A stretch of DNA of 64,000 nucleotides from Raillietiella orientalis (taxonomy: Eukaryota): the NCBI GenBank assembly GCA_036172245.1, contig JAYWIR010000132.1:1-64000 (forward strand), read 5' to 3'. The translations under genes were made by a program, and so were the position numbers. Of this stretch, positions 30,291 through 53,143 are shown one piece after another. Below the pieces are notes generated by a model, which worked only from the letters and a program-made list of their open reading frames with translations, made no database searches and had not been told where the DNA came from. Position 1 is the first letter of the stretch, and the number at the start of each line of letters is the position of its first letter.

Positions 30291-30813
30291 TTTGGCTAGT
30301 CAAATCGAAATAGTGAAGGAGATGATTCATCGGTGGAGAGGAAGTTTTGGATAAGTGTTGTGGCATGGGTCTTTCACCCGGGTGAGCCGGAGCTTTTATT
30401 ATTAAAATTTTTGACATCGACAGAAATTTCATAGCAAAGTCTTTTTTGTTAAGTCTTTTAGGTCAGCACTGTAATTGTTTCTGTATTTTGGCATGGGTGC
30501 GACTGGAGGGACGGGATTTTTGAGTGATGAGTTGATTGTTTCAGATGGAGGAATGGGTGGTCCTTTCCTCGGTGGAAACGTTCTGCTTTCACGACCCTTG
30601 GTTTTTCGATCCGACTTGGGCGGGCGGCTGTAATCGTAGGAAGTTATCACTGCTTGTTTGCATTGTAACTGCAGCTCTGAGAATGAGTCTGGTAGCTGCT
30701 GGTGTTGAACCGCTTTTGAAAAAGTTAAAAACGGGGAAACGTACCTCTCCAATTCGCTTCTCGTGCATTCAGTTCGTATGTCCTTTCGGAGGCTTGTGGA
30801 AGAGTAGACACTC

Positions 30814-30842
30814 AGATAATCTGGCATCTTGCCAGATTATCT
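30814..30842. repeat. Perfect inverted repeat, 13-bp arms, 3-nt loop
   Basis: AGATAATCTGGCA-tct-TGCCAGATTATCT. Confidence 0.8.
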
Positions 30843-34040: not shown

Positions 34041-35672
34041 GCCTTCGCCATGTTGGTGAACACCAGCACCACGTCCTCGATGACCTATCGGCTGAGTCCC
34101 ACGGTGGCCTGGCCACACTTGACATTGTCCAATATGTGGCGTCCGTGCACCGCACATGTTTGGACCGGAGAGATCAGCCTCGACATGACCCTGCCTAAGC
34201 GGTTGGACCAGATCTTCGCCAACCACTTGGCATCGGAGTTCAGGATCGAGATTGGCCTCCATTGACCGACCTGCGTGAGATCGCCTCCTTTTGGCAAGAA
34301 TCTCATCCGACTCTCGTAGAAGGATTCCGGTAGTCTTCCTTGTACTCGGATGCAGTGTCACCTGGTGGAACACACGCAGGTAGGCGTGCAAGTACCGCTG
34401 ATAGTGCGAGATGGGTACACTATCAGGGCCTGCTGCCACGTCCTTGCGAAGTTGCCCAAACGCAGCCTTCGCTTCATCTTCGGATAACTTCTCCTCCAGT
34501 CTACTTCTTTAGAGGTCGTCCGTCCTCTTCTCGAGGTATCCCAGGAAGGCTTGCTGACTCGAGCGGCAGAGATCTTGTCGTCGGAAGTGTCTCGCGTAAT
34601 GCCTGTGAAAGGCTTCCGCGATATCATCCGACGTGTGCCGCTCTTGGCCGTCGTACTGGGTGCAGAAGATATCTGTTGCCAGATTTCTCTTTACCAGCAC
34701 GCCGAACTCCCCTTTCCTGTTCTGGAAGACGTACCGACTCTCGTACTGATCGAAGTACTTCGACAGGGAGCGATCTTGGATGTTCAGCTCCTGGTACGCT
34801 TCCTGCCACATGCCCTTACAGAAATACTGCATGTTGCAGAAGAGATGGATTCTGTGCTTCAACCGGTCCCAGTCGGCGACCCTGCGGATGGTAGTATCTT
34901 GCAGGATCGCCTCGATGACTTCCTGGTGACCGGGAAGCGTTTCGAACCAGGCGGGCATGCAGATGAGCGCCGCCCTGGTGGCCTTTTCTTTACGAGGATT
35001 CTCAGTGCGGAGTGTAAACCGTACCAATGGGTGATCGGACAACAGGTGTGGAATGTCACGAAAACCCTGGATGCGGTTGTCTATCTCCGCACTGTGGAGG
35101 ACGTGATCGATCGGCTTGTGGCTAGCCGTTCGCCACACAAGTCCGAACTCGTCGGACAGCCGCCGATACGCCGCTCTTCACCTTGCATCCTGAGAATACT
35201 TGATTTCATCAAGGATGTTGAAATCCCCAGCGACGATGGCTATGTCCTTCGGTGCCACTCGTTTGCGGAGTTCTTCTTGCAGTTTCTCCGCGCACCGATG
35301 CTTGATCTTGTGCGGTCCGTAGACGTTCACCAGGAAGAGGTGAACGTTACTGGACCAGGACAGTCGCACGCCGATTACTCTGCCAGGTACCGGACAGAAG
35401 GTTTCCAAAATGGTGTGGGCGAGCTCGTTCTTGATGAGGATCGCCACCCCCATGGTCTTCTTCTGTCCCTCGCTGGCGAACAGTTGTCCGTCGAATCGGC
35501 GTTCCATCTCCAGGGCGTTCTGTTGCCCGAGACGGTGGATTTCTTGTAGGCACACCACATTAAATTTTGCGATGGTCCGCATGATGATCTTTCTCTTTCC
35601 CTGGTCCGTCAGTCCATTCACATTCCAGGAGGCGATGTTAATCCTCCTGGCACTGGACAGCGACGAGGCCAT
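34041..35672 (-). pseudogene. E4 ORF2 (APE endonuclease + start of RT), disrupted and truncated
   Basis: SWNVNG, CLQE, AGDFN, IDH, SDH and WRPISILNSDAK motifs; in-frame TGA at 35178. Confidence 0.9.
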
Positions 35673-35688
35673 GAAAGGGGAGAGAGTC

Positions 35689-37448
35689 CTACTTGTTTTT
35701 GCGCGCCTTCCTTAACTTCTTCTGCTGGGGAGACTTGTTAAGTTTCCCCGCTGAAGAAGTGGGTTTTTCGCTACCGGCATCGCTCTCGGTGCCGGTGTGG
35801 TCGGTCGACTCGGGATCTTCTCCGGAGCGTTCCGCCTTGGCGATCACCTTGCGCGGGAGGGTCTCCAGGGAGACCGTCGCGCAGTAGACCGCCTTGACTT
35901 CCGAGAGCTGGGCCTCCAGCTTCTCTCGCTCCGGCTCCACAACCATACGGTTGACTTCGTCTTGAGCCTCGGAGATGCGGGTCAGGAGTTGCTCCTGTTG
36001 CGCCTCTGTCTGGCCTTGACGAACTTCCTCCGCTAGTTTGACCACCTCCTCGGTGAGTTGCAGGGCCTCCTGCGACTCCGGGGTGGGTTCCGGCATCTTC
36101 ACCACTTCCTCTGTCACCTCCATCTTCTCGCCTTCCACTGCTGCAACCTCACGAGTAGGGGGGTTTGTTGCTCCCTCACGAGCATCTTCCTCTTCCCCTT
36201 TTTCCCTATCTCGACGAACCCGTCCGCCGAGACCGGAGCTGCCTCCCTCACCTTCTTTTGTTTGGCTAGCTGAGGTTTGATCACCTCAGCTAGCACCCTT
36301 TCCCTCACGGGGGATTCTCCACGGATTGTCCGGTAGTTAGCAAACTCCGGACAACTCCATTTCGCATGCCCGGGTTGTTTGCAGAAAGAGCAAACTTCGG
36401 GCATGGTGCAATTTCGGACCACGTGGCCCATCTTTCCGCACCGGAAACAGCGCGACCTAGGGCACGCGCCCATCCGGTGGCCAAAGTTTTTGCAGCCGGT
36501 GCAAACGATCGGCTGCTGCCTGTATCGAATTGAGACGTCCTGCGACGCCTCGTCGATATGGACGTTTCCGGGGATTTGCGCCCCCTCCTTTAATTATATC
36601 TTGGCGATCAGCTCGCCCGAGAAGATGTTTCCGGAGATGTTCTGGGTTTTCATCTCTAGAACTTCTCCGTATTGGGACAGGAAGTCCCACACCGTTTGTC
36701 TCTCGGTGAGGATACCAAGGCCATTCACGAAGACGGTCGTGTAAGGCATCTCGCCGATGCCTTGCACCATCTTCCCTTGGATATTGATGCCCTTTTCGAT
36801 AAGGGCCTCCCGCAGCTCCTCGCAGTCTGTATAGAGGATAAATCCCGCTGAGTTCGGGATTATCGCCTGCAGCCGGTCAAAATCGACGTTTGTCTTATAG
36901 AGGGCGCAGTACACCTCCCTCACATTGTTGAACCGGATCAGTCCGGTTTTAAAAATTATCGGCTTGGACGCCGGGCTGAGTCGAACCATCGGCTCTTTCG
37001 TTCGAGTGATGATTTCACTCGCCGGTATGCCGAATGTTCTGTTTGGTTGGGCAGAGGCCTGCCCCGCCGTCACCGCCGCATACGAAAAAGGCGGCTTCGC
37101 CGCCGTCGCCGAGCAAGATGTCGTCGCACCTTGCACTGTGTGCGCCGCGTGGACGCCCGCGGCTCCCGCCTGGGACGCCGCCGCCACCGCGGGCGCAACC
37201 CTCGTCGTCGCCGTCGCCGATGTCGCCGTAGGCGGGACCTTCGGCATCGCCGCCGCCGGCACGACCTTCCCCGCCGCGGGCGCGATCCTCGGCGTCGCCG
37301 CCGCGGGCACGACCACCATCGCCGTCGCCGCGGGCACGACCCTCGGCATCGCCGCCGCCGGCGCAGCAAAGCCTGCCGCGGGCGCGACCCTCGGCGTCGC
37401 CGCTGCCTCCTCGCCAGTGCCGCATATTACCTCCATGTGTTCTTCCAT
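35689..37448 (-). pseudogene. E4 ORF1 (Ala/Pro-rich repeats, RRM-like region, 3 CCHC zinc knuckles, coiled-coil tail)
   Basis: CTGCKNFGHRMGAC, CFRCGKMGHVVRNC, CSFCKQPGHAKWSC. Premature stop at 36594 and frameshift near 36140. First ATG at 37448, but the frame is open further upstream. Confidence 0.88.
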
Positions 37449-37620
37449 GGGGGTCGACGGCTGCTCCACTTCCTGTAGGTGCCTCCTTGCGGCCGCCGTT
37501 GCTGCCGCACTTCCTGTTTGGAGGACTTCCACCTCGGGTCCTTCGGCGCTGCTGCTTCTGCTGCTGTCGGGTATTTCCCTCGGTGGCACAGTCACTTCCA
37601 CACTATTCTTCACCAGGCAC

Positions 37621-37748
37621 TTGCCCTGTCAGGGCACTCAAAAATTGCCGCGGCAGTGGTTTTACGCACTGCCTTGGCGGGGTATTGGGTAAAGTTTTCA
37701 ACTAGCAATAATCGCGGCTCAGTGGCCTTCCTCGCCTATTTTCCCCAG
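37621..37748 (-). ncRNA. U4: U4 snRNA-like sequence at the E3/E4 junction (5' end non-canonical, 3-nt deletion in the 5' stem)
   Basis: Minus strand reads GAGCCGCGAUUAUUGCUAGUUGAAAACUUUACCCAAUACCCCGCC...GGCAAUUUUUGAGUGCCCUGACAGGGCA, matching the metazoan U4 core, Sm site and terminal hairpin. Confidence 0.85.
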
Positions 37749-37894
37749 GTCCCACAAGGGGTGGGGTAAATTTATTTTTCTATAAAACATTCACGCTACA
37801 TTCACATTCATACAATTTCACTTCTTTTGGACTTATCACTTGGGCACTTTTCTTTAAAGTTCACTTCTGGGCGTCTGAAAACTCACTGCTCTAC

Positions 37895-40800
37895 TTACCT
37901 GGGATCCGCTTGGGTTCGGAGACTTCCTTCTATCCTTCTCAGGATGTGTCGGTTGTTCCAAACTTGCACTCGACCGCAGTTTCGGATGCCAATCTCCTTC
38001 TGGATAAACCCTTGCAGGATCTCCATCGGAGATATGGCGGTCCTCGTGGTCCTCATCTTCCACCACCGCACAAGGATGGCGGTGATGAAAAGGGCGATGG
38101 TCAATCTGACCATGGGGTTGTAGCGTGTAACCGTTCCAGTTCCCTGGAACATTCCTGCCAGAACGTCCATGGTCGAGGCGTTGTGCAGCCCGATGACCCT
38201 TTTCAGGGTTGTCCACTCGGATTGCAATGTGGGACAGGTCAAGACATGTCTGTCTGACTCTAATCCACCACATGCTTTGCAGGTTTCTTCTTCTCGTCGT
38301 CCCGTGAAGAGCTTCATTCTCGTGCCGCACAGGATCCCCCCATGATAAAACATGAGGAGGTTGGCCTGTGTATCTGGTGGTAGGTCTCTCCTACATAGTA
38401 CAGTACCGATCGCTAGTGGGTTAAATCCACTGCTTGCGTGTCGGTCGGCAGCATCTTGGAGGGCACTGTGATCTTGTTCTTCCGTGATTATTTCTTTCTT
38501 GTTCTTCTTCGTTACCCTGAACCACGCATGGTTACGATGACTTTTCCATACCTCGCGGGTCTTCAAGGTAACGGATCCACTCATCCTTTCCACGTGCCGA
38601 AGTACCCTTGAATGATGAAGGTATCTTGGCCGTGTCCAGGATTCCAGTTCTCCGAAGGTAACTCTGGACCGCTGGCGTATCCAGCTCCTCGTGTCATCCT
38701 GCACGGGGAGCATCCAGGGGATAACCAGGATGGATTCCTCCTGCCAGAGTTCCTTGCTCCTCGGCATGATCTTGATCCCCTCGCTCTTCATCAGTCGCTG
38801 TTTCCGCCTCCACGTTGGGTCGATCGTTGATCATTCGTCCACTCTGCCGACGAGCGCAGTCATCAGGCCCCTCGAGTTGTTAATTAACAACGAGTATGCC
38901 CTATGTGCCGCGTACGGCCAGTCGTCCCAGTTGGAAGACATCTCCAGGATGTGTCGCACGTCCATGCTGTTCACGGCGTGTGCATTCGACTTCATCCCGG
39001 TTCCTCCCTCCTCCCTCGGACGACAAAGTGGCTTCAGGCGTACTCTCGGACGGTATCCTCCCCACAGGGTCTTCCTCTGTAGCTTTTCCACTTCTCGCTT
39101 GGTGTCTTTCGACATGTTGCTGAAGGCCGCTCCGAAAAGTATCTTCGGAAGGAGAACTCCATTCCAAAGGTTGGCCCTCTGCTTCATGTTGAAGTCCGAG
39201 CGCATGTACTTCGCTCCTTCTTCAGATACTTTCCCCAGGATTTCCTTCCACAACAGTTGGGATGCGGATGCATCGCCAATGTGGATACCTAGGTACTTAA
39301 TCGTGTCCACCGTACGGAAACCTTCACTCACGATTTTGTGAGGTCCAGGATGCCGACGGGCAAGAGTTTGCTTTTCTGGGCATTGATTTTAAGCCTCAGT
39401 CCTTTCTCCATGAGCTCAACCACATGCAAGAAGCCTCGCTGATCTCTCTCCCCTTTAAGAAAGAAGAGAAGATCGTCCGCGTAGGCAAGATGGGTGAGTC
39501 TCTGTTTGTCAATTTCGATTCCTCGGAGATACCCGGTTCTGTCGATGAACGACGAGAGGGCCTCCATGTAGATGACAAACAGCATCGGACTTAGCGCGTC
39601 GCCCTGACGGACTCCGTGTTCCATCCTGATAGCTGCTGTCGTTTCCCCATTGACGGTGATGCGGAATTCTTGGTCTTGTAGTACCATCCTGACGAGGTTG
39701 CTGAAGTATTCCGGGAGGTCCAGTCTTCCTAGAATCTTCAGCAGCATCCCATGGTCTACCGTGTCGAAGGCTTTCTCCATGTCAGTGAACACCAGCACCA
39801 GGTTCTCGCCTGTGTATCGGCTGAGTCCTATGGTGGCTTGAGCACACTTGACTTTGTCCGACATGTGACGACCGGGCACCGCACATGTCTGGACCGGAGA
39901 TATAAGCCGCGGCATGACCTTGCCTAAGCGGTTGGCCCAGATCTTCGCCAACCACTTGGCATCGGAGTTCAGGATCGAGATTGGCCTCCATTGAGTGACC
40001 TGCGTTAGGTCACCGCCTTTCGGCAACAATCTCATCCGACTCTTGCTGAAGGACTTTGGTATTCTTCCTTCTTCTTTGATGCATAGCGTCAGCTGGAGGA
40101 ACAGTCGCCGGTAGGCATGCAGATACCTCTGATAGTGGGAGATTGGAATACTATCAGGGCCTGCCGCCACATCCTTGCGAAGTTCCTGGAACGCAGCTTT
40201 CACTTCTTCATCGGAGATATCTTCTTCCAGCATCTACTTGCTCTTCTCGTCAAGCCGGTTTTCCAGATGTTTCAGGAATACTTGTTCGTATGTCTCGTCC
40301 AGTTGTTTCATACGGAAGTGTTCTGCATAATGCCTGTGGAAGGCTTCTGCGATGCCCTCCGTCTTGTTCCTCGTCTGGCCTGCGTACTGGATGCTGAAGA
40401 TATCTGTTGCCAGATTCTTCTTCTCCAGTACGCCAACTTCACCCTTGATGCTGCTGAAGACGTAACGGCTCTGGTACTGTTGCCAGTACTTGGAGAGCGA
40501 GCGATCTTGGATGTTGAGCTCGCGGTACGCCTCCTGCCTCATTCTCTTGTCGCCAAACTGTATGTTGCAGAACAAATGGATGCGGTGCTTGAGGCTGTAC
40601 CAATCGGCGACCCTGCTGATGGTTGTTGTTTGCAGGATCACCTCCATCAGATCTTGATGATGGGGATGGGTCTCGAACCATTGGGGCATGGTGAGAATTG
40701 CCTCCCTCGTTGGCTTGCTTCGTCGAGGGTTTTCCGTCCGCAAGGTGAACCTCATCAACGGATGATCGGACACAGAGTGGGGAGTGTCTCGAAAACCGAG

Positions 40801-41403
40801 GACTCGGTTCCCAATGTCGGCGCTGTAGAGAACGTGGTCGATCGGCTTGTGGCTCGCTGTCAGCCACTGGAATCCGAACTCGTCGGAAAGCCGCCGATAC
40901 GCCTCCCTTCCTCTGACGTCCCGGGAATAGATGACTTCGTCCAGGATGTTGAAGTCCCCAGCGATGATGACGATGTCCTTCGCCTGCACTTTCTGGCGGA
41001 GGGCTTCATAAAGCACCTCCACGCACTGGTGCTTTAGGTGATGCGGCCCGTAAACGTTCACCAGGAATAGGTGAACGTTCGCGGACCAGGACAATCGTGA
41101 GACGAGAATTCTTCCAGGAACGGGACAGAAGACTTCGAGGATGGTGGCGGCAAGGTGGTTCATGATTGCCGTTGCCACCCCCATGGTGTACCTCTGTCCC
41201 ACGCTGGTGAACAGTTGGACGTTCATTCGTCTCTCCAATTCCAGTCTGATCTGCTGCCCCATCTCGTGGGTTTCCTGCAGGCAAACGATGTCGAAGTGCC
41301 TGATCTTGTGGGCTATTCTTGGTCTTCGCACCGGATCTTGCATTCCATTGACGTTCCAGGAGGCGATGGTCAGTCTCCCGGCTGTCGACAAGGATGAGGC
41401 CAT
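37895..41403 (-). pseudogene. E3 ORF2: APE endonuclease, reverse transcriptase, C-terminal zinc finger (~1170 codons; 2 stops, 1 frameshift)
   Basis: SWNVNG/LQETH/GDFN/IDH/SDH; WRPISILNSDAK, DMEKAFD, GVRQGDALSP, YADD, KYLG; CKACG..HVLTC. Stops at 40234 and 38831, frameshift near 39330. Confidence 0.95.
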
Positions 41404-41415
41404 AAAAGGGTGGTT

Positions 41416-43131
41416 TTAGTTTTTGCCTTCCCGCAGCTTCTTCTGGCGGGGAGACCTTTCTCTCCTTACCGCCGTCGAAGCTGGCTTCTCACTCGCGGCA
41501 TCGCTCTCTCTGCCGGTGTGGTCTGTGGTGTCATTGTCCTGTTCACTGGAGCGCTCGAGCTTGGCGACTGTTTTCAGCTTAAGGTTCTCCAGGGAGACCT
41601 TGGCGCAGTAGTTCGCCTTTACGATGCAGAGCTTGTTCTCCAGCCTGCCGCGCTCTTCCGGATCTATGAAGGCGTTGATTCCCTCCTGAGTTTCCCCAAT
41701 GCGTGTCAGGAGCTTCGCCTGCTACACTTGGTTCACCTCCGCCTGTACCTCGTTTGCCAGCTTCACCACCTCCTCGGTGAGCTGCGCCGCCTCTTGCGAT
41801 GCCGGGGTAGCTTCAGTGATTTCCATCACCTCAGCTTCCGGCACTCCCTTCTGCTCAACAACCTCCTGCTGTCTTTCCACTGCCACGCCAACCGCCTGCT
41901 CGCCAACCTGCTGCATCTCCTCGCCTACCTGCTTCTCGGCCTGTGCAGAGGAGGAGGATTCGGGCTCCCTCACGAGCATCCTCCTCTTGCCGCCCTTCCC
42001 CACCGTCGTGAAGCCGTCCTCCGAAACGGGAGCGGCCTCCTTCGCCTTCCTCTGCTTCAGTGCTCTCTGAGGCTTGATCACCTCTTCGAGCACTCGCGCC
42101 CTGACCGGTGACTGGCCCCTCATCGTCCGGTAATTGGCAAACTCGGGGCAGCACCATATTGCGTGCCCTGGGGCCTTGCAAAATGAGCATACCTCCGGCA
42201 TGCTGCAATCCCGGACTTGGTGGCCTTGCTTCCCACAGCGGAAGCATTTCGATTTGGGACAGACACGCTGCCTGTGGCCGAACGATTTGCAACCGTTGCA
42301 GAAAACGGGTTGCGCCCTGTACCTCACAGAGACTCCCTGATCGTCACCCTCGAAATGGATGGTTCCAGGAATCTGGGCATCCTCCAACAGCTTCATCCTT
42401 ACAGTCGCTTCTCCCGAAAAGATCTTCAACGAAATGTTGTGGTAATTGCGGTCCAGTACCTCGCCGTACTGCGACAGGCGTTTCCACACAGCCTTCTGTG
42501 TGATAAACGGCCTTAGCCCGCTCAGAAAAACGGTGGTGTACGGCATTTCGCCGACTGCACACACCATTTTACCCTGGATGTTGATTCCTTTTTCGATGAA
42601 CTCCTGGCGGAGTTCATCGCACTCTGTGTAGATCGTGAACCCGAATGGCCCGGGCACGATCGCCTGCAACTTATCAAAGCCTACCTGTTGCTTGTACAGC
42701 GCCAGGTAGACTTCCCGAATGTTATGCATCCTGATGAGCCCTGTTCGAAACGTAACCTTCTTGACGTTTGGGCCCAACTTGACTATGGGCTCGTCAACGT
42801 CCTTAATCGGCCCGGACTCGGGCCTTCCGAATTTTCTCTGCGGTTGGGTTGTTGCCTTCCCAGCCGCCACCGCCGCATAGGAAAACGTCGCCGCCGCCGG
42901 CAACCGCCCCACGGTCGCAGCCACCGCGCAAGATGACGTCGCGTCATTAGCAACGGTTGGGCCTACGAGCCCTGCCGTTGCTAGGGACGCTTCCGCCGTC
43001 GCCGTCTCCTTCGCAGCCACCACCGTGGCCTGCCTTGCCTCCACCGCCGGTGTGGCGCCAGAAACACACGATTGCCCTACCTCCATAGGCTGAGGCTTCT
43101 CCGTGGTTCCCATCCACGGCATCTGTTGCAT
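41416..43131 (-). pseudogene. E3 ORF1 (RRM-like region, 3 CCHC knuckles, coiled coil), one premature stop
   Basis: CNGCKSFGHRQRVC, CFRCGKQGHQVRDC, CSFCKAPGHAIWCC; TAG at 41722 where copy E1 has CAG. Confidence 0.9.
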
Positions 43132-43270
43132 CTTGACGGGGTGCTGCTGCACCGCCGCCGGGGAGGGTCGCGACTCCTACACCTTGGACTCCCTCTGGTT
43201 GCTGCTGGTGCTGCTGCAGTCGCTGTGGGACGTCCTGGGTAGCGCACTCACTGTCTTTACACTTAAGCAC

Positions 43271-43402
43271 TTGCCCTCTCGGGGCACGCAAAAATTCCCG
43301 CGGCAGTGGTTTTACGCACTGCCTTGGCGGGGTATTGGGTAAAGTTTTCAACTAGCAATAATCGCGGCTCAGTCGCCTTCCTCGCCTACGATTTTCCCCA
43401 AG
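43271..43402 (-). ncRNA. U4: U4 snRNA-like sequence at the E2/E3 junction
   Basis: CUUGGGGAAAAUCGUAGGCGAGGAAGGCGACUGAGCCGCGAUUAUUGCUAGUUGAAAACUUUACCCAAUACCCCGCC-hairpin-AAUUUUUG-CG-UGCCCCGAGAGGGCA. Confidence 0.88.
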
Positions 43403-43538
43403 TCCCACAGGGGGTGGGGTGAATTTATTTTCTATAAAAATAGCATTCACACTACAATTTTCATTCACACTCTCATTCACGCCACGTTTACCAACACTTG
43501 TTCACTTGGATGTCCTGGGTTTCACTCGAGTTCTGCTA

Positions 43539-46500
43539 TCAGGTTGGGGGTCCAGATGTTTGTTCCCGGGCGTCGTCCTCGATCCTCTTCAGGATGAATC
43601 TGTACGTCCAGGCTTGGATTCTTCCGCAGTTCCTGATGCCGATTTCCTTCTTCAGGAGTCCTTGGAGGATCTCCATCGGAGGTGCGGCTCTCCTGGCTTT
43701 CCTCATCTTCCACCACCGCACAAGTATGGCGGTGATGAAGAGGGCGATGGTCGTCCTCACCATGGGATTGTAACAGGGAACATTACCATCTCCCTGAAAC
43801 ATCCCGGCGAGGATTTCCATTACGGAGCTGGTGGTGCGTCCGATGATCCTTTTCAGGATCAGCCAGTCGTGAAGCAGTGTGGGACACGTCAAGATGTGGA
43901 GTCTTGTGTCAGTGTCACCACACCCCGTGCAGTCTCTGTCGTCCCTCGTTCCCGTGAAGTGCTGTAGTCTGGACCCCGTCAGAATTCCTCCATGGTAGAA
44001 CATCAGGAGGTTGTCCTGGGTGTCCGGCGGAAGGTCACTCCTCCAGAGCGTTGTGCCGATCGCCAACAGGTTGATGCGATCGCTCCCGTAGCGGTCGGCG
44101 GCTTCTTGGAGGGCACTGGTGTCCTTTTCCTCGTCTCTGATCATCTTCCGCAGGTTCATTTTGGTCACCCTCGACCACGCGAAGTCGTTGTTGTTAATCC
44201 ACACCTCGCAGGTCTGGTGGGTGAACCTCCCTAACATCATCTCTATGTACCGAAGTACACGAGAATGATGTAGGTATCCTCCTCGGAGCCATTCCTGGAT
44301 CCGTTGCAGGGTAACTCTGGGCCGCTTGTAGATCCAGCTTCTCGTGTCCGAAGGGACCGGAAGCATCCAGGGGATCACCAGGATGGACTCGTCCTGCCAG
44401 AGTTCCCTGCTTCTTGGCACGATCTTCATCTTGTGCTTTCGCACAAGCCGCTGTTTTCTTCTCCAGGTAGGGTCGATGGTGATCCATTCCCCTGCTCGGC
44501 CTAGCAGCGCAGTCATCAGGCCTTTCGAGTTGTTGAGCAACAACGCGTAGGCCCTGTGCGCCGCATACGGCCAGTCATCCCAGTGGGTGGCTATGTCCAG
44601 GATGTGTCGCGTATCCATGATTTCCATGGAATGTGCAGGCGACTTCATCCCGGAACCGCCTTCTTCCCTGGGACGACACAGAGGTTTGAGACGGACTCTT
44701 GGGCGATAATGGCCCCACAAAGTTTTTCTTTGCAGCTTTTCTACTTCCCTCGTGGTATCTTTATTCATTCTTGCGAAGGCCGCCCCAAAGAGTATCTTTG
44801 GTAGAAGTACTGCGTTCCAAAGGTTGGCTCTTCGCTTCATGTTTAAGTCCACTCGAGTGTACTTTGCTGCTTCCTTAGACGTTTTCCCCAGGATTTCCGT
44901 CCACAGCAGCTTCGACGCAGAGTCGTCGCCGATGTAGACTCCCAGGTACTTGGCCGTATCCACCGTACGGAATCCACTCCCCGTTAGAGTGGAGAGGTTC
45001 AGGATACCGACGGGCAAAAGCTGGCTTTTTTGGGCGTTGATTTTCAAGCCCAGTCCCTGTTCCATGAGGTCGACCACATCCAGGAACGCTTGTTGATTCC
45101 TCTCTCCCTTGATGAAGAGGAGGAGATCATCTGCGTATGCCAGATGGGTCAGGTGCTGACCATCAATGGAAATCCCTGATAGGCGACCGCTTCTCTCGAT
45201 GTAAGAAGACAGCGCATCCATGTATATGACGAACAGCATTGGACTTAGCGAGTCGCCCTGCCGGACTCCTCGTTCCATCCTAATTGATGCCGTCTCTTGG
45301 CCGTTGATTTTGATACGGCAGTACTGGTTTTGGAGTACCGCCCTCACGAAGTTGCTGAACTGTTCCGGAAGCCCAAGCTTCTGCAGAACTTTCAGCAGCA
45401 TCCCGTGGTCGATGGAGAAGAAGGCCTTCTCCATGTCAGTGAATACCAGCACCAGGTTCTCGCCGACGTATCGGCTGAGTCCGACGGTGGCCTGGGCGCA
45501 CTTGACATTGTCAGACATGTGTCGTCCTGGGACTGCACACGTCTGGACCAAAGAGATCAGCCTCGACATGAACCTGCCTAAGCGGTTGGACGAGATCTTC
45601 GCCAATCACTTTGCATCTGAGTTTAGGATCGAGATCGGCCTCCATTGAGCGACCTGCGTGAGATCGCCTCCTTTTGGCAGCAATCTCATCCTACTCTCGA
45701 AGAAGGATTCCGGAAGTCGTCCTTCTTCTCGGATGCAGAGTGTCAACTGGTGGAACAAACGCAGGTAGGCGTGCAGGTACCGCTGACAGTGCGAGATTGG
45801 TACACTATCAGGGCCTGCTGCCACATCCTTGCGAAGCTGCCCAAACGCAGTCTTCACTTCCTCTTCGGAGAACGCCTCCTCCAGTCTACTTCTTTGGAGG
45901 TCGTCCGTCCTCTTCTCGAGGTAACCCAGAAAGGCTTGCTGACTCGAGCGGAAGAGATCTTGTCGTCGGAAGTGTCTCGCGTAATGCCTGTGAAAGGCTT
46001 CCGCGATATCCTCCGACGTGTGCCGCTCTTGGCCGTCGTACTGGATGCAGAAGATACCTGTTGCCAGATTCCTCTTTTCCAGCACGCCGACCTCCCCTTT
46101 CATGTTCTGCAAGACGTACCGACTCTCGTACTGATCGAAGTACTTCGAGAGGGAGCGATCTTGGATGTTCAGCTCCCGGTACGCTTCAAGCCTCATGCGC
46201 TTACAAAAGTACTGCATATTGCAGAACAGATGGATCCTGTGCTTCAACCTGTCCCAGTCGGCGACTCTGCGGATGGTGGTGTCCCGCAGAATCGCCTCGA
46301 TGACCTTCTGGTGACAGGGAAGCGTTTCGAACCAGGCGGGCATGCAGATGAGCGCCGCCCTGGTGGCCTTTTTCCTATGGGGATTTTCAGTGCGGAGTGT
46401 AAACCGTACCAATGGGTGATCGGACAACAGGTGTGGGATGTCACGAAAACCCTGGATGCGGTTGTCTATCTCCGCACTGTGGAGGACGTGATCGATCGGC

Positions 46501-47047
46501 TTGTGGCTAGCCGTTCGCCACACAAGTCCGACAGCCGCCGATACGCCGCTCTTCACCTTGCATCCTGAGAATACTTGATTTCATCAAGGCTGTTGAAATC
46601 CCCAGCGACGATGACTATGTCCTTCGGTGCCACTCGTTTGCGGAGTTCTTCTTGCAGTTTCTCCGCGCACCGATGCTTGATCTTGTGCGGTCCGTAAACG
46701 TTCACCAGGAAGAGGTGAACGTTACTGGACCAGCACAGTCGCACGCCGATTACTCTGCCAGGTACCGGACAGAAGGTTTCCAAAATGGTGTGGGCGAGCT
46801 CGTTCTTGATGAGGATCGCCACCCCCATGGTCTTCTTCGGTCCCTCGCTGGCGAACAGTTATCCGTCGATTCGGCGTTCCATCTCCAGGGCGTTCTGCTG
46901 CCCGAGACGGTGGATTTCTTGTAGGCACACCACATCCTGTCTTGCGATGGTCCGCATGACACTTTTTCTCTTTCCCTGATCCGTCAGTCCATTCACATTC
47001 CAGGAGGCGATGTTAATCCTCCTGGCACTGGACAGCGACGAGGCCAT
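43539..47047 (-). pseudogene. E2 ORF2: APE endonuclease, RT, zinc finger (disrupted)
   Basis: Same motif set (GVRQGDSLSP, YADD, CTGCG..HILTC). Stops at 46859, 46553 and 45606; ~10-bp deletion near 46530 relative to E4. Confidence 0.95.
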
Positions 47048-47087
47048 GAAAGGGGAGGGAGTCCTACTTCATTTTTCTTGCCTTGCT

Positions 47088-48824
47088 TTACTTCTTCTGC
47101 TGGGGAGACTTGTTCAGTTTCCCCGCTGAAGAAGTGGATTTTTCACTGCCGGCATCGCTCTCGGTGCCGGTGTGATCAGTGGACTCCTGTTCGTCCACAG
47201 AGCGTTCCGCCTTGGCGACCACCTTGCGCGGAAGGGTCTCCAGCGAGACCGTCGCACAGAATGCTGCCTTGAGGTCGCCTAACTGATCCTCCAACTTTTC
47301 CCGCTCTCTTTCTACAACCATGCGGTTGACGTCGTCTTGGACCTCACAGATGCGGTCCAGGATTTTTGTCTGTTCTGCCTCCGGTTGGCCCTGGCGAACC
47401 TCTTCCGCCAGTTTTATCACTTCCTCGGAGAGTTGCAGGGCCTCCTGCGTCTGCGTGACTGGTTCTGGCGTCTTCTCCTCCTTCTCCGTTTCCTCCGCCA
47501 CCTCCATGCTCTTGCCTACCACTGCTTCAACTACCGGGGTTTGAGGAATCTGATGCTCCCTTGCGAGCATCTTCCTTTTCCCCTTCTTCCCCACCTTCAC
47601 GAAACCGTCCGCCGAAACCGGAGCGGCCTCTCTTGCTTTCCTCTGTTTTGCTAGCTGAGGTTTGATTACCTCAGCTAGCACCCTTTCCCTCACTTGGGAC
47701 TCTCCTCTAATCGTCCGGTAGTTTGCATACTCCGGACAACTCCATTTCGCATGCCCTGGTTGCTTGCAGAAGGAGCAAAGCTCGAGCATGCTACAGTTCC
47801 GGACCTGGTGGCCCTGTTTCCCGCACCTGAAGCAGCGAGATCTAGGGCAGGCACCCATCCGGTGGCCAAAGTCCTTGCAACCGAGACAGAAGATCGTTTG
47901 CTGGCGGTACCTGACGTTCACCTCTTGCGAGGCTTCGTCAATGTGCAGCAAACCCGGGATTTGGGCACCTTCCTTAAGTTTAATATTGGCGAATACTTCG
48001 CCCGAGAAGATGTCTCCGAAGATGTTCTGGAAGTTTACATCCAAAACCTCCCCGTATTTCTCCAGGAAATCCCACACCGTTTTTTATTCGGTGAAGATTC
48101 CCACTCCGCTGAGATGGACGGTGGTGTAACGCATTTCGCCTACGCCTTGTACCATTTTGCCTTGAATATTGATACCCTTTTCGATTAGGGCCTCCCGCAA
48201 TTCTTCGCAGTCCGTGTACAGTGTAACACCTGACGTGCTAGGAATGATCGCTTGGAGACGATCAAAGTCGACGTTGGTTTCAAAGTGAGCACAGTACACC
48301 TCTCTTACATTATTAAACCGGATCAATCCGGTCTTGAACATAATTGGTTTCGACGCTAGACTTAAGCCAACCATTGGTTCTTTGCATCGCGTGATGCGTC
48401 CAGTCGTCGGCTTCTTAAATGTTCGGTTTGGCTGGGCAGAGGCCTGCCCCGCCGTAACCGCCGCATACGAAAACGGCTTTGTAGCCGAACCCGAACAAGA
48501 TGGCGTCGCCATGTACGCCGCGTGGACGCCCGGGGCTCCCGCCTGGGACGCCGCCGCCGCCGCTGCGGGCGCAACCCTCGTCGTCGCCGTCGCCGATGTC
48601 GCCGTAGGCGGGACCTTCGGCATCGCCGCCGCCGGCACGACCTTCCCCGCCGCGGGCGCGATCCTCGGCGTCGCCGCCGCGGGCACGACCTCCATCGCCG
48701 TCGCCGCGGGCACGACCCTCGGCATCGCCGCCGCCGGCGCAGCAAAGCCTGCCGCGGGCGAGACCCTCGGCGTCGCCGCTGCCTCCTCGCCACTGCCGCA
48801 TATTACCTCCATGTGTTCTTCCAT
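47088..48824 (-). pseudogene. E2 ORF1 (Ala/Pro repeats, RRM-like region, 3 CCHC knuckles), premature stop
   Basis: CLGCKDFGHRMGAC, CFRCGKQGHQVRNC, CSFCKQPGHAKWSC. In-frame TAA at 48084; the frame is open upstream to 49013. Confidence 0.9.
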
Positions 48825-48996
48825 GGGGGTCGACGGCTGCTCCACTCCTTGTATGTGCCTCCTTGCGGCTGCCGTTGCTGCCGCACTTCTTGTTTGGAGG
48901 ACTTCCACCTCGGGTCCTTCGGCGCTGCTGCTGCTGCTGCTGTCGGGTATTTCCCTCGGTGGCACAGTCACTTCCACACTATTCTTCACCAGGCAC

Positions 48997-49128
48997 TTGC
49001 CCTGTGAGGGCACACAAAAATTGCCGCGGCAGTGGTTTTACGCACTGCCTTGGCGGGGTATTGGGTAAAGTTTTCAACTAGCAATAATCGCGGCTCAGTC
49101 GCCTTCCTCGCCTACGATTTTCCCCAAG
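48997..49128 (-). ncRNA. U4: U4 snRNA-like sequence at the E1/E2 junction
   Basis: Core identical to the copy at 43271-43402; Sm site AAUUUUUG (49015-49022), terminal hairpin UGCCCU-CAC-AGGGCA. Confidence 0.88.
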
Positions 49129-49285
49129 TCCCACAGGGGGTGGGGTAAATTTATTTTCTGTAAAACATTCACGCTACAATCACATTCATACACTTTCACT
49201 TTTCTTTTTCCTCACTTGTCATCGATCACTTGGGCACTTGTTCTTAAAGTTCACTTCTGGGCGTCTGAAAAGTCCACTGCTCTAC

Positions 49286-52200
49286 TTACCTTGGATCCGC
49301 TTGGGTTCGGAGACTTCCTTCTATCCTCCTCAGGATGTGTCGGTAGTTCCAAACTTGCACTCGTCCGCAGTTTCGGATGCCAATCTCCTTCTGGATCAAC
49401 CCTTGCAGGATCTCCATCGGAGATATGGCGGTCCTCGTGGTCCTCATCTTCCACCACCGCACAAGGATGGCGGTGATATAAAGGGCAATGGTCACTCTGA
49501 CCATGGGGTTGTAGCGTGGAACCGTTCCAGTTCCCTGGAACATTCCTGCCAGAACGTCCATGGTCGAGGCGTTGTTCAGCCCGATGACCCTTTTCAGGGT
49601 TGTCCACTCGGATTGCAATGTGGGGCAGGTCAAGACATGTCTGTCTGAATCTAATCCACCACATGCTTTGCAGGTTTCTTCTTCTCGTCGTCAGGTGAAG
49701 AGCTTCATTCTCGTGCCGCACAAAATCCCCCCATGATAAAACATGAGGAGGTTGTCCTGTGTATCTGGTGGTAGGTCACTCCTCCATAGTACCGTACCGA
49801 TGGCTAGTGGGTTAAATCCACTGCTTGCGTATCGGTCGGCAGCATCTTGGAGGGCACTGTGATCTTTTTCTTCCGTGATTATTTGTTTCTTGTTCTTCTT
49901 CGTTACCCTGGACCACGCATGGTTACGATGACTTTTCCATACCTCGCGGGTCTTCAGGGTATCGGATCCACTCATCGTTTCCACGTGCCGAAGTACCCTT
50001 GAATGATGAAGGTATCTTCGCCGTGTCCAGGATTCCAGTTCCCCGAAGGTAACTCTGGACCGCTGGCGCATCCAGCTCCTCGTGTCATCCTGCACGGGGA
50101 GCATCCAAGGGATAACCAGGATGGATTCCTCCTGCCAGAGTTCCTTGCTTCTCGGGATGAACTTGATCCCCTCGCTCTTGGTTAATCTTTGTTTCCGCCT
50201 CCAAGTTGGGTCGATGGTTGACCATTCGTCCACTCTGCCGACGAGCGCAGTCATCAGGCCCCTCGAGTTATTAATTAACAACGAGTATGCCCTATGCGCC
50301 GCGTACGGCCAGTCGTCCCAGTTGGAAGACATCTCCAGGATGTGTCGCACCTCCATGTTGTTCACGGCGTGTGCAGGCGACTTCATTCCGGTTCCTCCCT
50401 CCTCCCTCGGTCGACAAAGTGGCTTCAGGCGTACTCTCGGACGGTATCCTCCCCACAGGGTCTTCCTCTGTAGCTTTTCCACTTCTCGCTTGGTGTCTTT
50501 CGACATGTTGCTGAAGGCCGCTCCGAAAAGTATCTTCGGAAGGAGAACTCCATTCTAAAGGTTGGCCCTCTGCTTCATGTTGAAGTCCGAGCGCATGTAC
50601 TTCGCTCCTTCTTCAGATACTTTCCCCAGGATTTCCTTCCACAACAGTTGGGATGCGGATGCATCGCCTATGTGGATACATAGGTACTTAATCGTGTCCA
50701 CCGTACGGAAACCTTCACTCACGATTATTGTGAGGTCCAGGATGCCGACGGGCAAGAGTTTGCTTTTCTGGGCATTGATTTTAAGCCTCAGTCCTTTCTC
50801 CATGAGCTCAACCACATGCAAGAAGCCTCGCTGATCTCTCTCCCCTTTAAGAAAGAAGAGAAGATCGTCCGCGTAGGCAAGATGGGTGAGTCTCTGTTTG
50901 TCAATTTCGATTCCTCGGAGATACCCGGTTCTGTCGATGAACGACGAGAGGGCCTCCATGTAGATGACAAACAGCATCGGACTTAGCGCGTCGCCCTGAC
51001 GGACTCCGTGTTCCATCCTGATAGCTGCTGTCTTTTCCCCATTGACGGTGATGCGGAATTCTTGATCTTGTAGTATCATCCTGACGAAGTTGCTGAACTG
51101 TTCCGGAAGCCCAAGCTTCTCCAGAACCTTCAGCAGCATCCCATGGTCGATGGAGTCGAAGGCCTTCTCCATGTCAGTGAACACCAGCACCAGGTTCTCG
51201 CCTCTGTATCGGCTGAGTCCTATGGTGGCTTGAGCACACTTGACTTTGTCCGAGATGTGACGACCGGGCACCGCACATGTCTGGACCGGAGATATAAGCC
51301 GCGGCATGACCTTGCCTAAGCGGTTGTCTCGTCCAGTTGTTTCATACGGAAGTGTTCTGTATAATGCCTGTAGAAGGCTTCTGCGATGTCTTCCGTCTTG
51401 TTCCTCGTTTGGCCTGCGTACTGGATGCTGAAGATATCTGTTGCCAGATTCTTCTTCTCCAGTACGCCAACTTCACCCTTGATGCTGCTGAAGACGTAAC
51501 GGCTCTGGTACTGTTGCCAGTACTTGGAGAGCGAGCGATCTTGGATGTTGAGCTCGCGGTACGCCTCCTGCCTCATTCTCTTGTCGCCAAACTGTATGTT
51601 GCAGAACAAATGGATGCGGTGCTTGAGGCTGTACCAATCGGCGACCCTGCTGATGGTTGTTGTTTGCAGGATCACCTCCATCAGATCTTGATGATGGGGA
51701 TGGGTCTCGAACCATTGGGGCATGGTGAGAATTGCCTCCCTCGTTGGCTTGCTTCGTCGAGGGTTTTCCGTCCGCAAGGTGAACCTCATCAACGGATGAT
51801 CGGACACAGAGTGGGGAGTGTCTCGAAAATTGAGGACTCGGTTCCCAATGTCGGCGCTGTAGAGAACGTGGTCGATCGGCTTGTGGCTCGCTGTCAGCCA
51901 CTGGAATCCGAACTCGTCGGAAAGCCGCCGATACGCCTCCCTTCCTCTGACGTCCCGGGAATAGATGACTTCGTCCAAGATGTTGAAGTCCCCAGCGATG
52001 ATGACGATGTCCTTCGCCTGCACTTTCTGGCGGAGGGCTTCATGAAGCACCTCCACGCACTGGTGCTTTAGATGATGCGGCCCGTAAAGGTTCCCCAGGA
52101 ATAGGTGAACGTTCGCGGACCAGGACAATCGTGAGACGAGAATTCTTCCAGGAACGGGACAGAAGACTTCGAGGATGGTGGCGGCAAGGTGGTTCTTGAT

Positions 52201-52437
52201 TGCCGTTGCCACCCCCATGGTGTACCTCTGTCCCACGCTGGTGAACAGTTGGACGTTCATTCGTCTCTGCAATTCCAGTCCGATCTGCTGCCCCATCTCG
52301 TGGGTTTCCTGCAGGCAAACGATGTCGAAGTGCCTGATCTTGTTTGCTATTCTTCGTCTTCGCACCGGATCTTGCATTCCATTGACGTTCCAGGAGGCGA
52401 TGCTCAGTCTCCCGGCTGTCGACAAGGATGAGGCCAT
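49286..52437 (-). pseudogene. E1 ORF2 (EN-RT-ZnF), disrupted
   Basis: EN and RT motifs as in E3; deletion near 51325, stops at 50555 and 49691. Confidence 0.93.
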
Positions 52438-52449
52438 AAAAGGGTGGTT

Positions 52450-53123: not shown

Positions 53124-53143
53124 CTCTGGTAGATTGCTCTCGC

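What the first reader, a model, noticed from the sequence alone, without database searches (positions are those of the whole stretch)
37621..49146. Tx1-clade retrotransposons joined by U4 snRNA-like modules: candidate U4-headed / U4-targeting LINE system
Seen: all three intact junctions (37621-37767, 43271-43420, 48997-49146) hold a ~150-nt block that is nearly identical even though the flanking A and B families are clearly diverged. On the element strand it reads GCGAUUAUUGCUAGUUGAAAACUUUACCCAAUACCCCGCC...AAUUUUUG. Known: this is the metazoan U4 core and Sm site. Sequence-specific non-LTR elements target small-RNA genes (Keno/Tx1 and Utopia at U2, Mutsu at 5S rDNA), but I know of none at U4. 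Inference: the elements carry most of U4 as their head and insert near the U4 5' end. That would rebuild a U4 gene upstream, borrow the snRNA Pol II promoter and recreate a target in every copy, producing head-to-tail arrays. Alternative: U4 is a 3'-transduced tail. This window cannot separate the two models.
Basis: partly seen in the sequence, partly recalled or inferred. Interest (0 to 1): 0.92.

Follow-up and report, generated by a model that had tools for sequence, protein, structure and literature searches.

The report
LINE array with U4 snRNA junctions
Two diverged families of LINE jumping genes sit head-to-tail inside a satellite, and a near-identical copy of most of the U4 spliceosomal RNA (about base 20 to its end) lies at every junction, a LINE–U4 link I could not find described in print.

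Summary
Rfam U4 (RF00015) hits the minus strand at 49138-49000, 43412-43273 and 37761-37624 (77, 71 and 63 bits; gathering 46). Real U4 homology starts only at about U4 nt 20. The first ~20 nt of each hit are the 3' end of the upstream LINE. Contigs of a public run confirm this terminus: three leave the A-type 3' UTR at 43393 for unrelated sequence.

The elements are decayed L1/Tx1-type LINEs (CCHC ORF1; APE endonuclease plus RT). Families A and B are 25-87% identical everywhere except a 96-99% block: the last ~45 nt of the 3' UTR plus U4.

Each U4 piece ends ~7 nt past its 3' stem-loop, directly before the next element's 5' UTR. Same-family copies are mosaic, so the array is not one duplicated dimer.

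The 3'-tail model is disfavoured. The best reading (about 0.45) is insertion at U4 nt 19/20, with a U4 copy kept or rebuilt in front of each full-length element. Targeting is not shown: no U4 nt 1-19 or snRNA promoter is present, and no genome is held. The Tx1-clade label could not be tested. I rate it a new variant of a known kind (compare Keno and Utopia at U2).

The parts
53142..64000 (.). 277-bp satellite flanking the array on the high-coordinate side (upstream on the element strand)
   Evidence: TRF: period 277, 39.2 copies, 88% matches. The monomer BLAST gives 40 hits, all plus. No U4 hit at E<=10 over 54000-55200.
53124..53141 (-). About 18 nt of filler between the satellite and B', including a 10-nt inverted copy of the adjacent satellite
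   Evidence: B' homology to B begins at window 53123. The satellite ends at about 53142. The inverted 10-mer was read.
49119..53123 (-). Element B': a B-family LINE, 5'-truncated (starts ~1.2 kb into B), with no U4 in front and a 355-nt internal deletion relative to B
   Evidence: BLAST B' vs B: 94% over 424 nt, starting at the equivalent of B 42074. B vs B' identity is 0.90-1.00 per 200 columns, apart from the deleted stretch.
48993..49118 (-). U4 module J3: U4 from about nt 20 to ~7 nt past the 3' stem-loop, between the B' 3' terminus and the A 5' UTR
   Evidence: Rfam U4 77.3 bits over 49138-49000. Alignments A1 and A2.
43393..48992 (-). Element A (full length, decayed): 5' UTR ~168 nt, ORF1 from the ATG at 48824 (one in-frame stop), ORF2 with RT, 3' UTR ending ...CTTGGGGAAA at 43393
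   Evidence: Stop-to-stop frames. Pfam zf-CCHC (E 6e-4) and RVT_1 (E 5e-27). ATG position. The 3' terminus is supported by 3 contigs that leave at 43393.
43267..43392 (-). U4 module J2, between the A 3' terminus and the B 5' UTR
   Evidence: Rfam U4 70.6 bits over 43412-43273. Contig record 5 of X1 bridges 43268-43722 with 5 differences.
37740..43266 (-). Element B (full length, decayed): 5' UTR ~135 nt, ORF1 43131-41722 (CCHC), ORF2 with APE endonuclease and RT, broken by 2 in-frame stops and 1 frameshift
   Evidence: Frames. Pfam zf-CCHC (3.7e-6), Exo_endo_phos (4e-16) and RVT_1 (6e-31). ATG position.
37617..37739 (-). U4 module J1, between the B 3' terminus and the A' 5' UTR; it lacks 3 nt at the LINE/U4 boundary, which breaks the base of the U4 5' stem-loop
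   Evidence: Rfam U4 62.6 bits over 37761-37624. Alignment A1. Pair table.
34041..37616 (-). Element A': A-like, U4-preceded, 3'-truncated inside ORF2; a mosaic relative to A
   Evidence: BLAST 87% over 3739 nt. Identity to A is 0.96-0.99 over the first 600 nt, 0.73-0.86 over the next ~1.4 kb and 0.90-0.98 after that.
31737..34009 (-). Element A'': a further partial copy (ORF1 to mid-endonuclease), joined to A' by a non-LINE-type junction and broken at 31737
   Evidence: BLAST 75% to A over 2337 nt. Repeat families D4, D10, D16 and D18. Sequence.
43424..43429 (-). AATAAA poly(A)-signal-like hexamer about 30 nt upstream of the A 3' terminus, conserved in all three 3' ends
   Evidence: Read and alignment A1. 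Its function is inferred.

Best explanation
This is a lineage of L1/Tx1-type LINEs (at least families A and B plus mosaic sublineages) that is mechanistically coupled to U4 snRNA. Shown: each element's true 3' terminus (...CTTGGGGAAA) abuts U4 at about nt 20. Each full-length element's 5' UTR is directly preceded by the rest of U4, up to ~7 nt past the 3' stem-loop. Inferred mechanism: the endonuclease nicks U4 DNA between nt 19 and 20, and reverse transcription is primed there. Each full-length integration leaves a U4 copy in front of its own 5' end. This could arise in three ways: the element RNA carries U4 as a 5' leader acquired by read-through from a U4 gene, a long target duplication spans U4 nt 20 to its end, or the RT jumps onto U4 RNA. 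The site is therefore re-created and hit again, by whichever family is active. The result is head-to-tail arrays of mixed families separated by U4(20-end), ended upstream by the first 5'-truncated insertion. The U4 pieces stay nearly identical because they are copied from, or held to, the host's working U4 and do not evolve with the LINE body.
For: All 3 intact 3' termini in the window run into U4 at nt ~20 (J2, J3) or ~23-24 (J1), and all 3 intact 5' UTRs follow U4. There are 0 stray U4 fragments and 0 further 3' termini. Both families occur on both sides of a U4: B'|U4|A, A|U4|B and B|U4|A'. The junction block is 0.96-0.99 identical between the A and B units, while the RT core is at most 0.87. 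The modules keep the U4 5' stem-loop through 2 double compensatory changes relative to a genuine U4 (L001), plus the Sm site and 3' hairpin, so they derive from a functional-type U4. The copies are independent insertions and not a duplicated dimer: A vs A' is mosaic (0.73-0.99), and B vs B' differs by ~3% plus a 355-nt deletion. All internal units are full length and only the upstream-most unit (B') is 5'-truncated, as growth at a re-created upstream site predicts. About 10 nt after the U4 3' hairpin, the A-type leader resembles the 3'-flank motif of the genuine U4 gene in L001 at the same offset: 24 of 5000 shuffles and 0 of 61 control windows score as high. This hints at a gene or read-through origin. 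Precedents come from passages and sections read. Utopia families lie in arrays with U2 genes, with U2 starting at nt 39 after each LINE 3' UTR and intact U2 upstream (PMC4640811, sections 6-7). The Fig. 3 legend of PMC4494074 lists Tx1 targets U2, U5, 5S and satellites. R1 arrays are separated by retained 33-nt target pieces (10.1101/158386).
Against: No U4 nt 1-19, PSE or other snRNA promoter is seen anywhere in the window. Upstream of B' there is only 18 nt of filler and then satellite, although the region is rearranged: an inverted satellite block lies at 19031-25668. In run X1, three contigs carry the A-type 3' end into mutually unrelated non-U4 sequence (agreement 0.6), so targeting is not strict, or those are rearrangements. 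A plain target duplication gives no reason for the U4 piece to stop at the RNA's 3' end. Differences among modules cluster in the 3' stem-loop and are not spread evenly, which a purely target-derived piece does not predict. The B-type leader does not match the L001 flank above chance (1905 of 5000 shuffles). No genome was available to count junction types. Only 10 of 84 loose ends from the single read-laying run were shown.
Confidence: 0.45

Rival explanations
1. The LINE is U4-headed but does not target U4. U4(20-end) is a heritable or recurrently added 5' appendage, made by the RT jumping from the LINE RNA's 5' end onto U4 RNA. Arrays arise because the RT jumps end-to-end from one headed RNA to the 3' end of the next within one integration, or because new copies integrate at the 3' termini of resident copies.
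For: The U4 piece ends within ~7 nt of the 3' stem-loop and directly abuts the LINE 5' UTR in both families, the geometry of snRNA/LINE template-switch chimeras. All internal units are full length, only the last-copied (upstream-most) unit is truncated, and it is joined to satellite through filler, as serial jumping predicts. The array lies in satellite with no U4 gene flank. A-type 3' ends also occur at non-U4 sites. Precedents from passages read: recurrent 5' addition of U1/U2 sequence to SINEU elements mobilised by Tx1 (PMC4494074); U1, U2, U4, U5, U6, U3 and 5S chimeras with human L1 (10.1101/2025.02.02.635956); in-cell fusions of transgene 5' ends to U6 RNA and head-to-tail tandem copies with R2 proteins (PMC11371274).
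Against: It gives no reason for the head to begin at nt 20 in two junctions and nt 23-24 in the third, when known U6/L1 chimeras carry full-length snRNA. A heritable head should have diverged between A and B like the rest of the element (73% overall), yet it is 96-99% identical. A cDNA of more than 20 kb from one event would be unusually long. The 3'-flank-like motif in the A leader fits a gene or read-through origin better than mature U4 RNA. snRNA genes have no internal promoter (stated in PMC4494074, introduction), so such a head would not by itself give transcription.
Confidence: 0.25
2. The junction is a local accident amplified in heterochromatin. One or two chance LINE/U4 chimeric junctions were formed once and then multiplied by unequal exchange or segmental duplication and gene conversion inside the satellite, so the U4 link is not a property of the LINE families.
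For: The array lies inside a 277-bp satellite with an inverted, diverged block next to it. It contains non-LINE-type rearrangements (the A'/A'' junction at 34041/34009 and the break at 31737). B and B' are 11.4 kb apart and ~97% identical. Gene conversion could homogenise the junction block.
Against: Both orders exist (A 3' end|U4|B 5' end and B 3' end|U4|A 5' end), so at least two junctions of the same design had to form independently. A vs A' is mosaic with a ~1.4-kb stretch at 0.73-0.86, and J1 differs from J3 by a 3-nt deletion at the boundary and a different 3' UTR upstream, which is not a clean higher-order repeat. A contig of run X1 bridges the A 3' UTR-U4 junction with 5 differences in 455 nt, while most laid contigs of that run are under 95% like the window (89 of 128), so related copies exist beyond this exact array. 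X1 could still be the assembly's own sample.
Confidence: 0.1
3. U4 is a 3'-transduced tail. The mobile RNA is LINE plus U4(20-end), read through from an original insertion into a U4 gene, and new copies integrate at the 3' end of a U4 sequence.
For: The highly conserved block is continuous across the last ~45 nt of the 3' UTR and U4, as expected if together they form the RT-recognised 3' end. This model would also give LINE-U4-LINE-U4 arrays.
Against: Three contigs end the A-type 3' UTR at 43393 and continue into unrelated sequence, so the LINE has a terminus of its own upstream of U4. An AATAAA lies about 30 nt before that terminus in all three copies. The model needs two different site specificities: nt 19/20 to acquire the tail and the U4 3' end to build arrays.
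Confidence: 0.07

Closest known systems
Utopia (restriction-like-endonuclease LINEs at U2 snRNA genes) and Keno (Tx1-clade, same U2 site); PMC4640811, sections 6-7 read
   Same: The LINE 3' UTR abuts an snRNA sequence that lacks its first tens of nucleotides (U2 from nt 39 there; U4 from about nt 20 here). Different LINE families are interleaved with snRNA copies in arrays (Phytophthora). The expected upstream snRNA fragment is not found. Some families show weak specificity, with insertions elsewhere.
   Different: The partner is U4, not U2. Here the snRNA piece is the only spacer: the next LINE's 5' UTR starts ~7 nt after the U4 3' hairpin, with no intergenic DNA. No intact U4 gene is seen in the window. 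Targeting is not demonstrated by a genome census, as it was for Utopia.
Drosophila R1 tandem array separated by a retained 33-nt rDNA target piece (as described in 10.1101/158386, passages read)
   Same: Head-to-tail LINEs have a constant piece of their target in each junction, explained by repeated insertion at one site followed by expansion, and located in heterochromatin with internal deletions.
   Different: The spacer here is ~126 nt and corresponds to a structural RNA from an internal point to its 3' end. Two diverged families alternate.
snRNA/LINE-1 template-switch chimeras (U6/L1 and, more rarely, U1, U2, U4, U5, U3, 5S; 10.1101/2025.02.02.635956, passages read) and U6 fusions in R2-driven transgene insertion (PMC11371274, passages read)
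   Same: The snRNA lies in sense orientation immediately 5' of the LINE sequence, with the snRNA's 3' end at the joint.
   Different: Those are one-off events with 5'-truncated LINEs that do not propagate, and U6 is full length. Here the joint is at the full-length 5' UTR in two diverged families, and U4 lacks nt 1-19.
SINEU: crocodilian SINEs with U1/U2-derived heads mobilised by Tx1 (PMC4494074, abstract and passages read)
   Same: snRNA-derived sequence sits at the 5' end of a retroposon of the Tx1 system, with recurrent 5' addition of snRNA sequence.
   Different: Those are non-autonomous SINEs with U1 or U2 heads that target a Mariner transposon. Here the elements are autonomous LINEs with U4.

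Membership tests
U4 spliceosomal RNA (Rfam RF00015) | Covariance-model score at or above the gathering score | tested here: met
   77.3, 70.6 and 62.6 bits against a gathering score of 46. A genuine U4 with the same core scores 105.9.
U4 spliceosomal RNA (Rfam RF00015) | Conserved 5' end (nt 1-19, the part that pairs with U6) | tested here: not met
   The first ~20 aligned positions do not match the consensus or L001. Contigs show that this stretch is the LINE's own 3' terminus. The modules are therefore U4 fragments, not U4 genes.
U4 spliceosomal RNA (Rfam RF00015) | 5' stem-loop, central stem-loop, Sm site and 3' hairpin kept | tested here: met
   RNAalifold on L001 plus the 3 modules: 35 pairs, 4 with both sides changed and the pair kept, 2 of them in the 5' stem-loop. 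AATTTTTG is invariant. J1 breaks 3 pairs at the base of the 5' stem.
Tx1 clade of non-LTR retrotransposons | APE-type endonuclease plus RT in ORF2; ORF1 with a CCHC knuckle and not the mammalian L1-type ORF1 | tested here: met
   Pfam Exo_endo_phos 4e-16, RVT_1 6e-31 and 5e-27, zf-CCHC 3.7e-6. There was no Transposase_22 hit. These features are shared with plant-type L1, so they do not discriminate. That ORF1 type separates the clades is recalled knowledge.
Tx1 clade of non-LTR retrotransposons | RT-domain phylogeny placing the element with Tx1 references and not L1 | not testable with these tools
   No labelled Tx1 or Repbase reference was retrievable. The best hits are <=36% identical and include plant L1-type (PF13966) and Anolis L1 with PF02994.
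snRNA-gene-specific LINEs (Keno/Utopia type behaviour) | 3' junction at one fixed position of the snRNA | tested here: met
   3 of 3 intact 3' termini in the window abut U4 at nt ~20, ~20 and ~23-24.
snRNA-gene-specific LINEs (Keno/Utopia type behaviour) | Most genomic copies with intact 3' ends are flanked by the target | tested here: inconclusive
   No genome is held. In run X1, one contig bridges the 3' UTR into U4 and three contigs leave the 3' terminus for unrelated sequence. Only 10 of 84 loose ends were shown.
snRNA-gene-specific LINEs (Keno/Utopia type behaviour) | The upstream part of the target (U4 nt 1-19, promoter) lies on the 5' side of at least some insertions | tested here: not met
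   0 of 4 element 5' sides in the window show it. Three are preceded by U4(20-end) plus a LINE 3' end, and B' is preceded by filler plus satellite. The region is rearranged, so this is weak negative evidence.
snRNA/LINE template-switch chimeras | One-off events with the LINE part 5'-truncated at variable positions | tested here: not met
   The joint is at the same full-length 5' UTR start in A, A' and B.

The most novel reading that the evidence does not exclude
The element is a promoter-less LINE that carries U4 nt 20 to the end, plus a weakened 3' box, as its 5' leader. It integrates precisely between nt 19 and 20 of U4 genes. Each full-length insertion therefore rebuilds a complete, possibly still functional, U4 gene in front of itself, is transcribed by read-through from the snRNA promoter, and leaves the target usable for the next insertion. 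The principle resembles integrative elements that carry the 3' part of the tRNA gene they insert into (textbook knowledge, recalled), and it has not been described for a LINE.
Probability: 0.2. Interest if true: 0.85.

Novelty: new variant of a known kind. Interest (0 to 1): 0.6.

Why it matters
In the papers I could search, LINEs tied to small-RNA genes are known for U2 (Keno, Utopia), U5, 5S and rRNA, but not for U4. This would add a new partner and a new endonuclease specificity. Such specificities are of practical interest for site-directed insertion into multicopy 'safe' genes, as in R2-based work. The architecture is also unusual: a structural RNA from an internal point to its exact 3' end is the only spacer between full-length elements of different families. 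That makes three questions directly testable: how a promoter-less LINE gets transcribed, how 5' junctions are resolved, and how LINE arrays seed satellite-like DNA. If the U4 piece proves to be only a local heterochromatic accident, the finding is minor.

Tried and rejected
- Whole genome: none is held for this window, so no census of junctions was possible.
- Earlier scan notes: nothing for this genome, for the junction sequence or for the key words. The 'snRNA retrotransposon' notes concern other genomes and unrelated cases.
- Sequencing runs: 1 holder (X1, share 0.34). No RNA holder is listed. X2 and X3 covered only an unrelated 35-nt stretch. The single read-laying run showed 10 of 84 loose ends, so I could not see whether U4 heads with non-LINE upstream flanks exist.
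- The first ~20 nt of the Rfam hits as diverged U4 nt 1-19: rejected.
- The 277-bp satellite as U4-derived, prompted by a loose motif resemblance: no U4 hit at E<=10 in either satellite orientation block.
- Pairing of the LINE 3' terminus with U4 nt 1-19: -10.6 kcal/mol, and 1289 of 2000 shuffles do as well. Rejected.
- Dada transposons as a precedent for carrying part of the target gene: the passages read (PMC3706591) do not say so, and PMC8869645 has 0 mentions of U4 snRNA.
- Tx1 clade test: two protein searches found no labelled Tx1 reference.
- Metagenome scan for the U4 core: 1 locus, an unrelated genuine U4 gene with no LINE. It was useful only as a U4 reference.
- ORFs in 25.5-31.3 kb: 0 Pfam hits for 5 of 5.
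- Literature for a U4-linked LINE: searches found none. Repbase Reports and most subscription papers are not searchable here.


Full report
**What is there.**
The window is mostly a 277-bp satellite: 1-19029 and 53142-64000 in one orientation, and a diverged copy (~75% identical) in inverted orientation at 19031-25668. A GC-rich block (55% against ~42%) at 31737-53141 is a head-to-tail array of LINE-like elements on the minus strand.

Reading the minus strand, the order is:
- satellite
- 18 nt of filler
- B' (53123→49119), 5'-truncated ~1.2 kb into the element
- U4 module J3
- A (48992→43393)
- U4 module J2
- B (43266→37740)
- U4 module J1
- A' (37616→34041), cut inside ORF2
- A'' (34009→31737), a partial copy
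- ~6 kb of AT-rich sequence with no Pfam match

The elements encode an ORF1 with a CCHC knuckle and an ORF2 with an APE-type endonuclease and a reverse transcriptase. No copy has an open ORF2: each is broken by in-frame stops and frameshifts. A and B are about 73% identical overall.

**The observation.**
Rfam finds exactly three RNA-family hits at gathering threshold. All are U4 on the minus strand at the three junctions, with 77.3, 70.6 and 62.6 bits against a gathering score of 46. A laxer scan of the array and its edges adds no further U4. The U4 core occurs three times without mismatch, and none of 100 shuffles gave a match.

The junction block is the only part of the unit where A and B contexts agree. 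Identity is 0.96-0.99 there, against 0.25-0.87 elsewhere, RT core included.

**Where U4 really begins and ends.**
The Rfam alignments are end-to-end on the model, but their first ~20 positions fit neither the consensus nor a genuine U4 gene with the same core. I fetched that gene from a metagenome contig (L001, 105.9 bits); it starts with the canonical 5' end. U4 homology starts at about nt 20 in J2 and J3. In J1 three nucleotides are missing at that point.

The stretch before it is the LINE's own 3' end. When contigs of public run X1 were laid on 40500-46500, the best-supported loose end of the whole stretch was at 43393. There, three contigs follow the A-type 3' UTR and then continue into sequence unlike the window. 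Their agreement with each other is 0.6, about what three unrelated sequences give by my arithmetic. Another contig bridges 43268-43722 (3' UTR plus U4) with 5 differences and stops where the A and B 5' UTRs diverge.

An AATAAA lies about 30 nt upstream of the terminus in all three copies. The last ~45 nt of the 3' UTR are as conserved between families as U4 is, which is usual for the RT-recognised end of a LINE.

Downstream, conservation between A-type and B-type junctions stops ~7 nt after the U4 3' hairpin. The 5' UTRs (about 168 nt in A, 135 nt in B) and the ORF1 start codons follow.

The module is therefore U4 from about nt 20 to its 3' end, set between a LINE 3' terminus and a LINE 5' UTR.

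**Nature of the U4 piece.**
Relative to L001, the modules keep the 5' stem-loop through two double compensatory changes. They also keep the single-stranded core, the central hairpin, the Sm site and the 3' hairpin. They derive from a working type of U4 and are not random decay.

They are not U4 genes, because nt 1-19 are absent. The few differences among the three modules cluster in the 3' hairpin.

About 10 nt after the hairpin, the A-type leader resembles the 3'-flank motif of the L001 gene at the same offset. Only 24 of 5000 shuffles and 0 of 61 control windows from element A score as high. The B-type leader does not match L001 above chance (1905 of 5000). It does resemble a recalled 3'-box consensus with 2 mismatches; that consensus is from memory, so this is only a lead.

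**Is the array just a local duplication?**
Probably not.
- Both orders occur (A 3' end|U4|B 5' end and B 3' end|U4|A 5' end), so the design arose at least twice.
- A and A' are mosaic: 0.96-0.99 over the first 600 nt, 0.73-0.86 over the next ~1.4 kb, then 0.90-0.98.
- B and B' differ by about 3% and a 355-nt deletion.
- J1 and J3 differ at the boundary and in the upstream 3' UTR.

The region is nevertheless rearranged. There is the inverted satellite block, the A'/A'' joint and the break at 31737. The outer flanks of the array therefore carry little weight.

**Mechanism.**
Four readings fit the three junctions.
1. **Site-specific insertion at U4 nt 19/20, with a U4 copy kept or rebuilt in front of each full-length element.** The U4 copy could be a heritable 5' leader, a long target duplication, or a jump onto U4 RNA. 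The site is re-created and hit repeatedly.
2. **A U4-headed LINE without U4 targeting.** Arrays are made by serial end-to-end template jumping or by integration at resident 3' termini.
3. **A local accident amplified in heterochromatin.**
4. **U4 as a 3'-transduced tail.**

Reading 4 is disfavoured by the independent 3' terminus and the AATAAA.

Reading 3 is disfavoured by the two junction orders and the mosaicism.

Readings 1 and 2 both predict what is seen: internal units are full length and only the upstream-most unit is truncated.

Reading 1 best explains why modules next to different families are nearly identical and why U4 starts at one fixed position. It also has close precedents. Utopia and U2 form arrays in Phytophthora, with U2 starting at nt 39 after each LINE and intact U2 upstream (PMC4640811, sections 6-7 read). 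The figure legend of PMC4494074 lists Tx1 families at U2, U5 and 5S. R1 arrays keep a 33-nt target piece in each junction (10.1101/158386, passages read).

Reading 2 best explains why the U4 piece ends at the RNA's 3' end and why the array lies in satellite with no U4 gene flank. Its precedents are the recurrent 5' addition of U1/U2 to Tx1-mobilised SINEU (PMC4494074), sporadic snRNA/L1 chimeras that include U4 (10.1101/2025.02.02.635956, passages read), and U6 fusions and head-to-tail copies in R2-driven insertion (PMC11371274, passages read).

I put reading 1 at about 0.45, reading 2 at 0.25, reading 3 at 0.10 and reading 4 at 0.07.

**What is not shown.**
- No promoter, no U4 nt 1-19 and no intact U4 gene is present in the window.
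- Targeting has not been counted genome-wide, because no genome is held.
- Three non-U4 3' flanks show that targeting is not strict.
- No RNA data bear on transcription.
- The 'Tx1-clade' label is untested. The nearest proteins are <=36% identical, and the named ones span plant L1-type and Anolis L1-type.

**Novelty.**
Four full-text searches found no LINE described as U4-targeting or U4-headed. A 2015 paper lists only Keno and Utopia (U2), Dada-U1 and Dada-U6 as transposons aimed at snRNA genes (PMC4640811, section 11 passage). A 2015 figure legend adds U5 for Tx1 (PMC4494074). A 2022 Dada survey does not mention U4 snRNA. Repbase Reports and most subscription journals could not be searched. 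I rate this a new variant of a known kind and not a new kind.

Noticed in passing
window 19029-19031 and 19031-25668: The 277-bp satellite switches orientation abruptly at ~19030. The inverted block is much more diverged (TRF 73% matches; ~75% to a monomer from the other side) than the flanking arrays (88-90%). This suggests an old inversion or a palindromic junction beside the LINE array.
   Followed up: partly
window 25669-31736: About 6 kb of AT-rich (39% GC), non-satellite, non-LINE sequence lies between the inverted satellite and the broken end of the array. 5 of 5 ORFs of at least 100 aa have no Pfam match. The only RNA hit is a sub-threshold mir-547 match (27 bits against 90).
   Followed up: partly
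window 48950-48985 (A), 37575-37610 (A') and 43230-43260 (B), minus strand: Just after the U4 3' hairpin, the A-type 5' UTR carries a motif like the 3' flank of a genuine U4 gene (L001) at the same offset (24 of 5000 shuffles score as high). B has a different motif at that offset, which resembles a 3' box only by a recalled consensus. The U4 piece may have been copied from a gene or read-through transcript and not from mature RNA.
   Followed up: partly
window 53124-53141, minus strand: The 18-nt filler at the B'/satellite joint contains a 10-nt inverted copy of the immediately adjacent satellite. This fits either a microhomology or snap-back 5' junction of a truncated LINE insertion, or an inversion breakpoint.
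   Followed up: no
window 34009-34041: A' (cut inside ORF2) is joined to A'' (starting ~150 nt into the element) through ~30 nt that belong to neither. This is a rearrangement and not a retrotransposition junction. A'' is 83-88% like the matching part of A'.
   Followed up: partly
window 48540-47350 versus 36960-35770: A and A' share near-identical U4, 5' UTR and ORF1 start but differ by 20-27% across the rest of ORF1 and the start of ORF2. This points to recombination (probably RNA template switching) between sublineages of this LINE.
   Followed up: partly
L001 1150-1295, minus strand: A metagenome contig holds a full U4 gene (105.9 bits) whose single-stranded core is identical to the window's modules over 33 nt, although its hairpins differ. 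It was used here only as a reference for the U4 5' end and 3' flank.
   Followed up: yes
window 42203-42237: Runs X2 and X3 each have one high-depth contig matching only this 35-nt stretch of B ORF1, with long unrelated sequence on both sides. This is probably a chance or low-complexity match.
   Followed up: no
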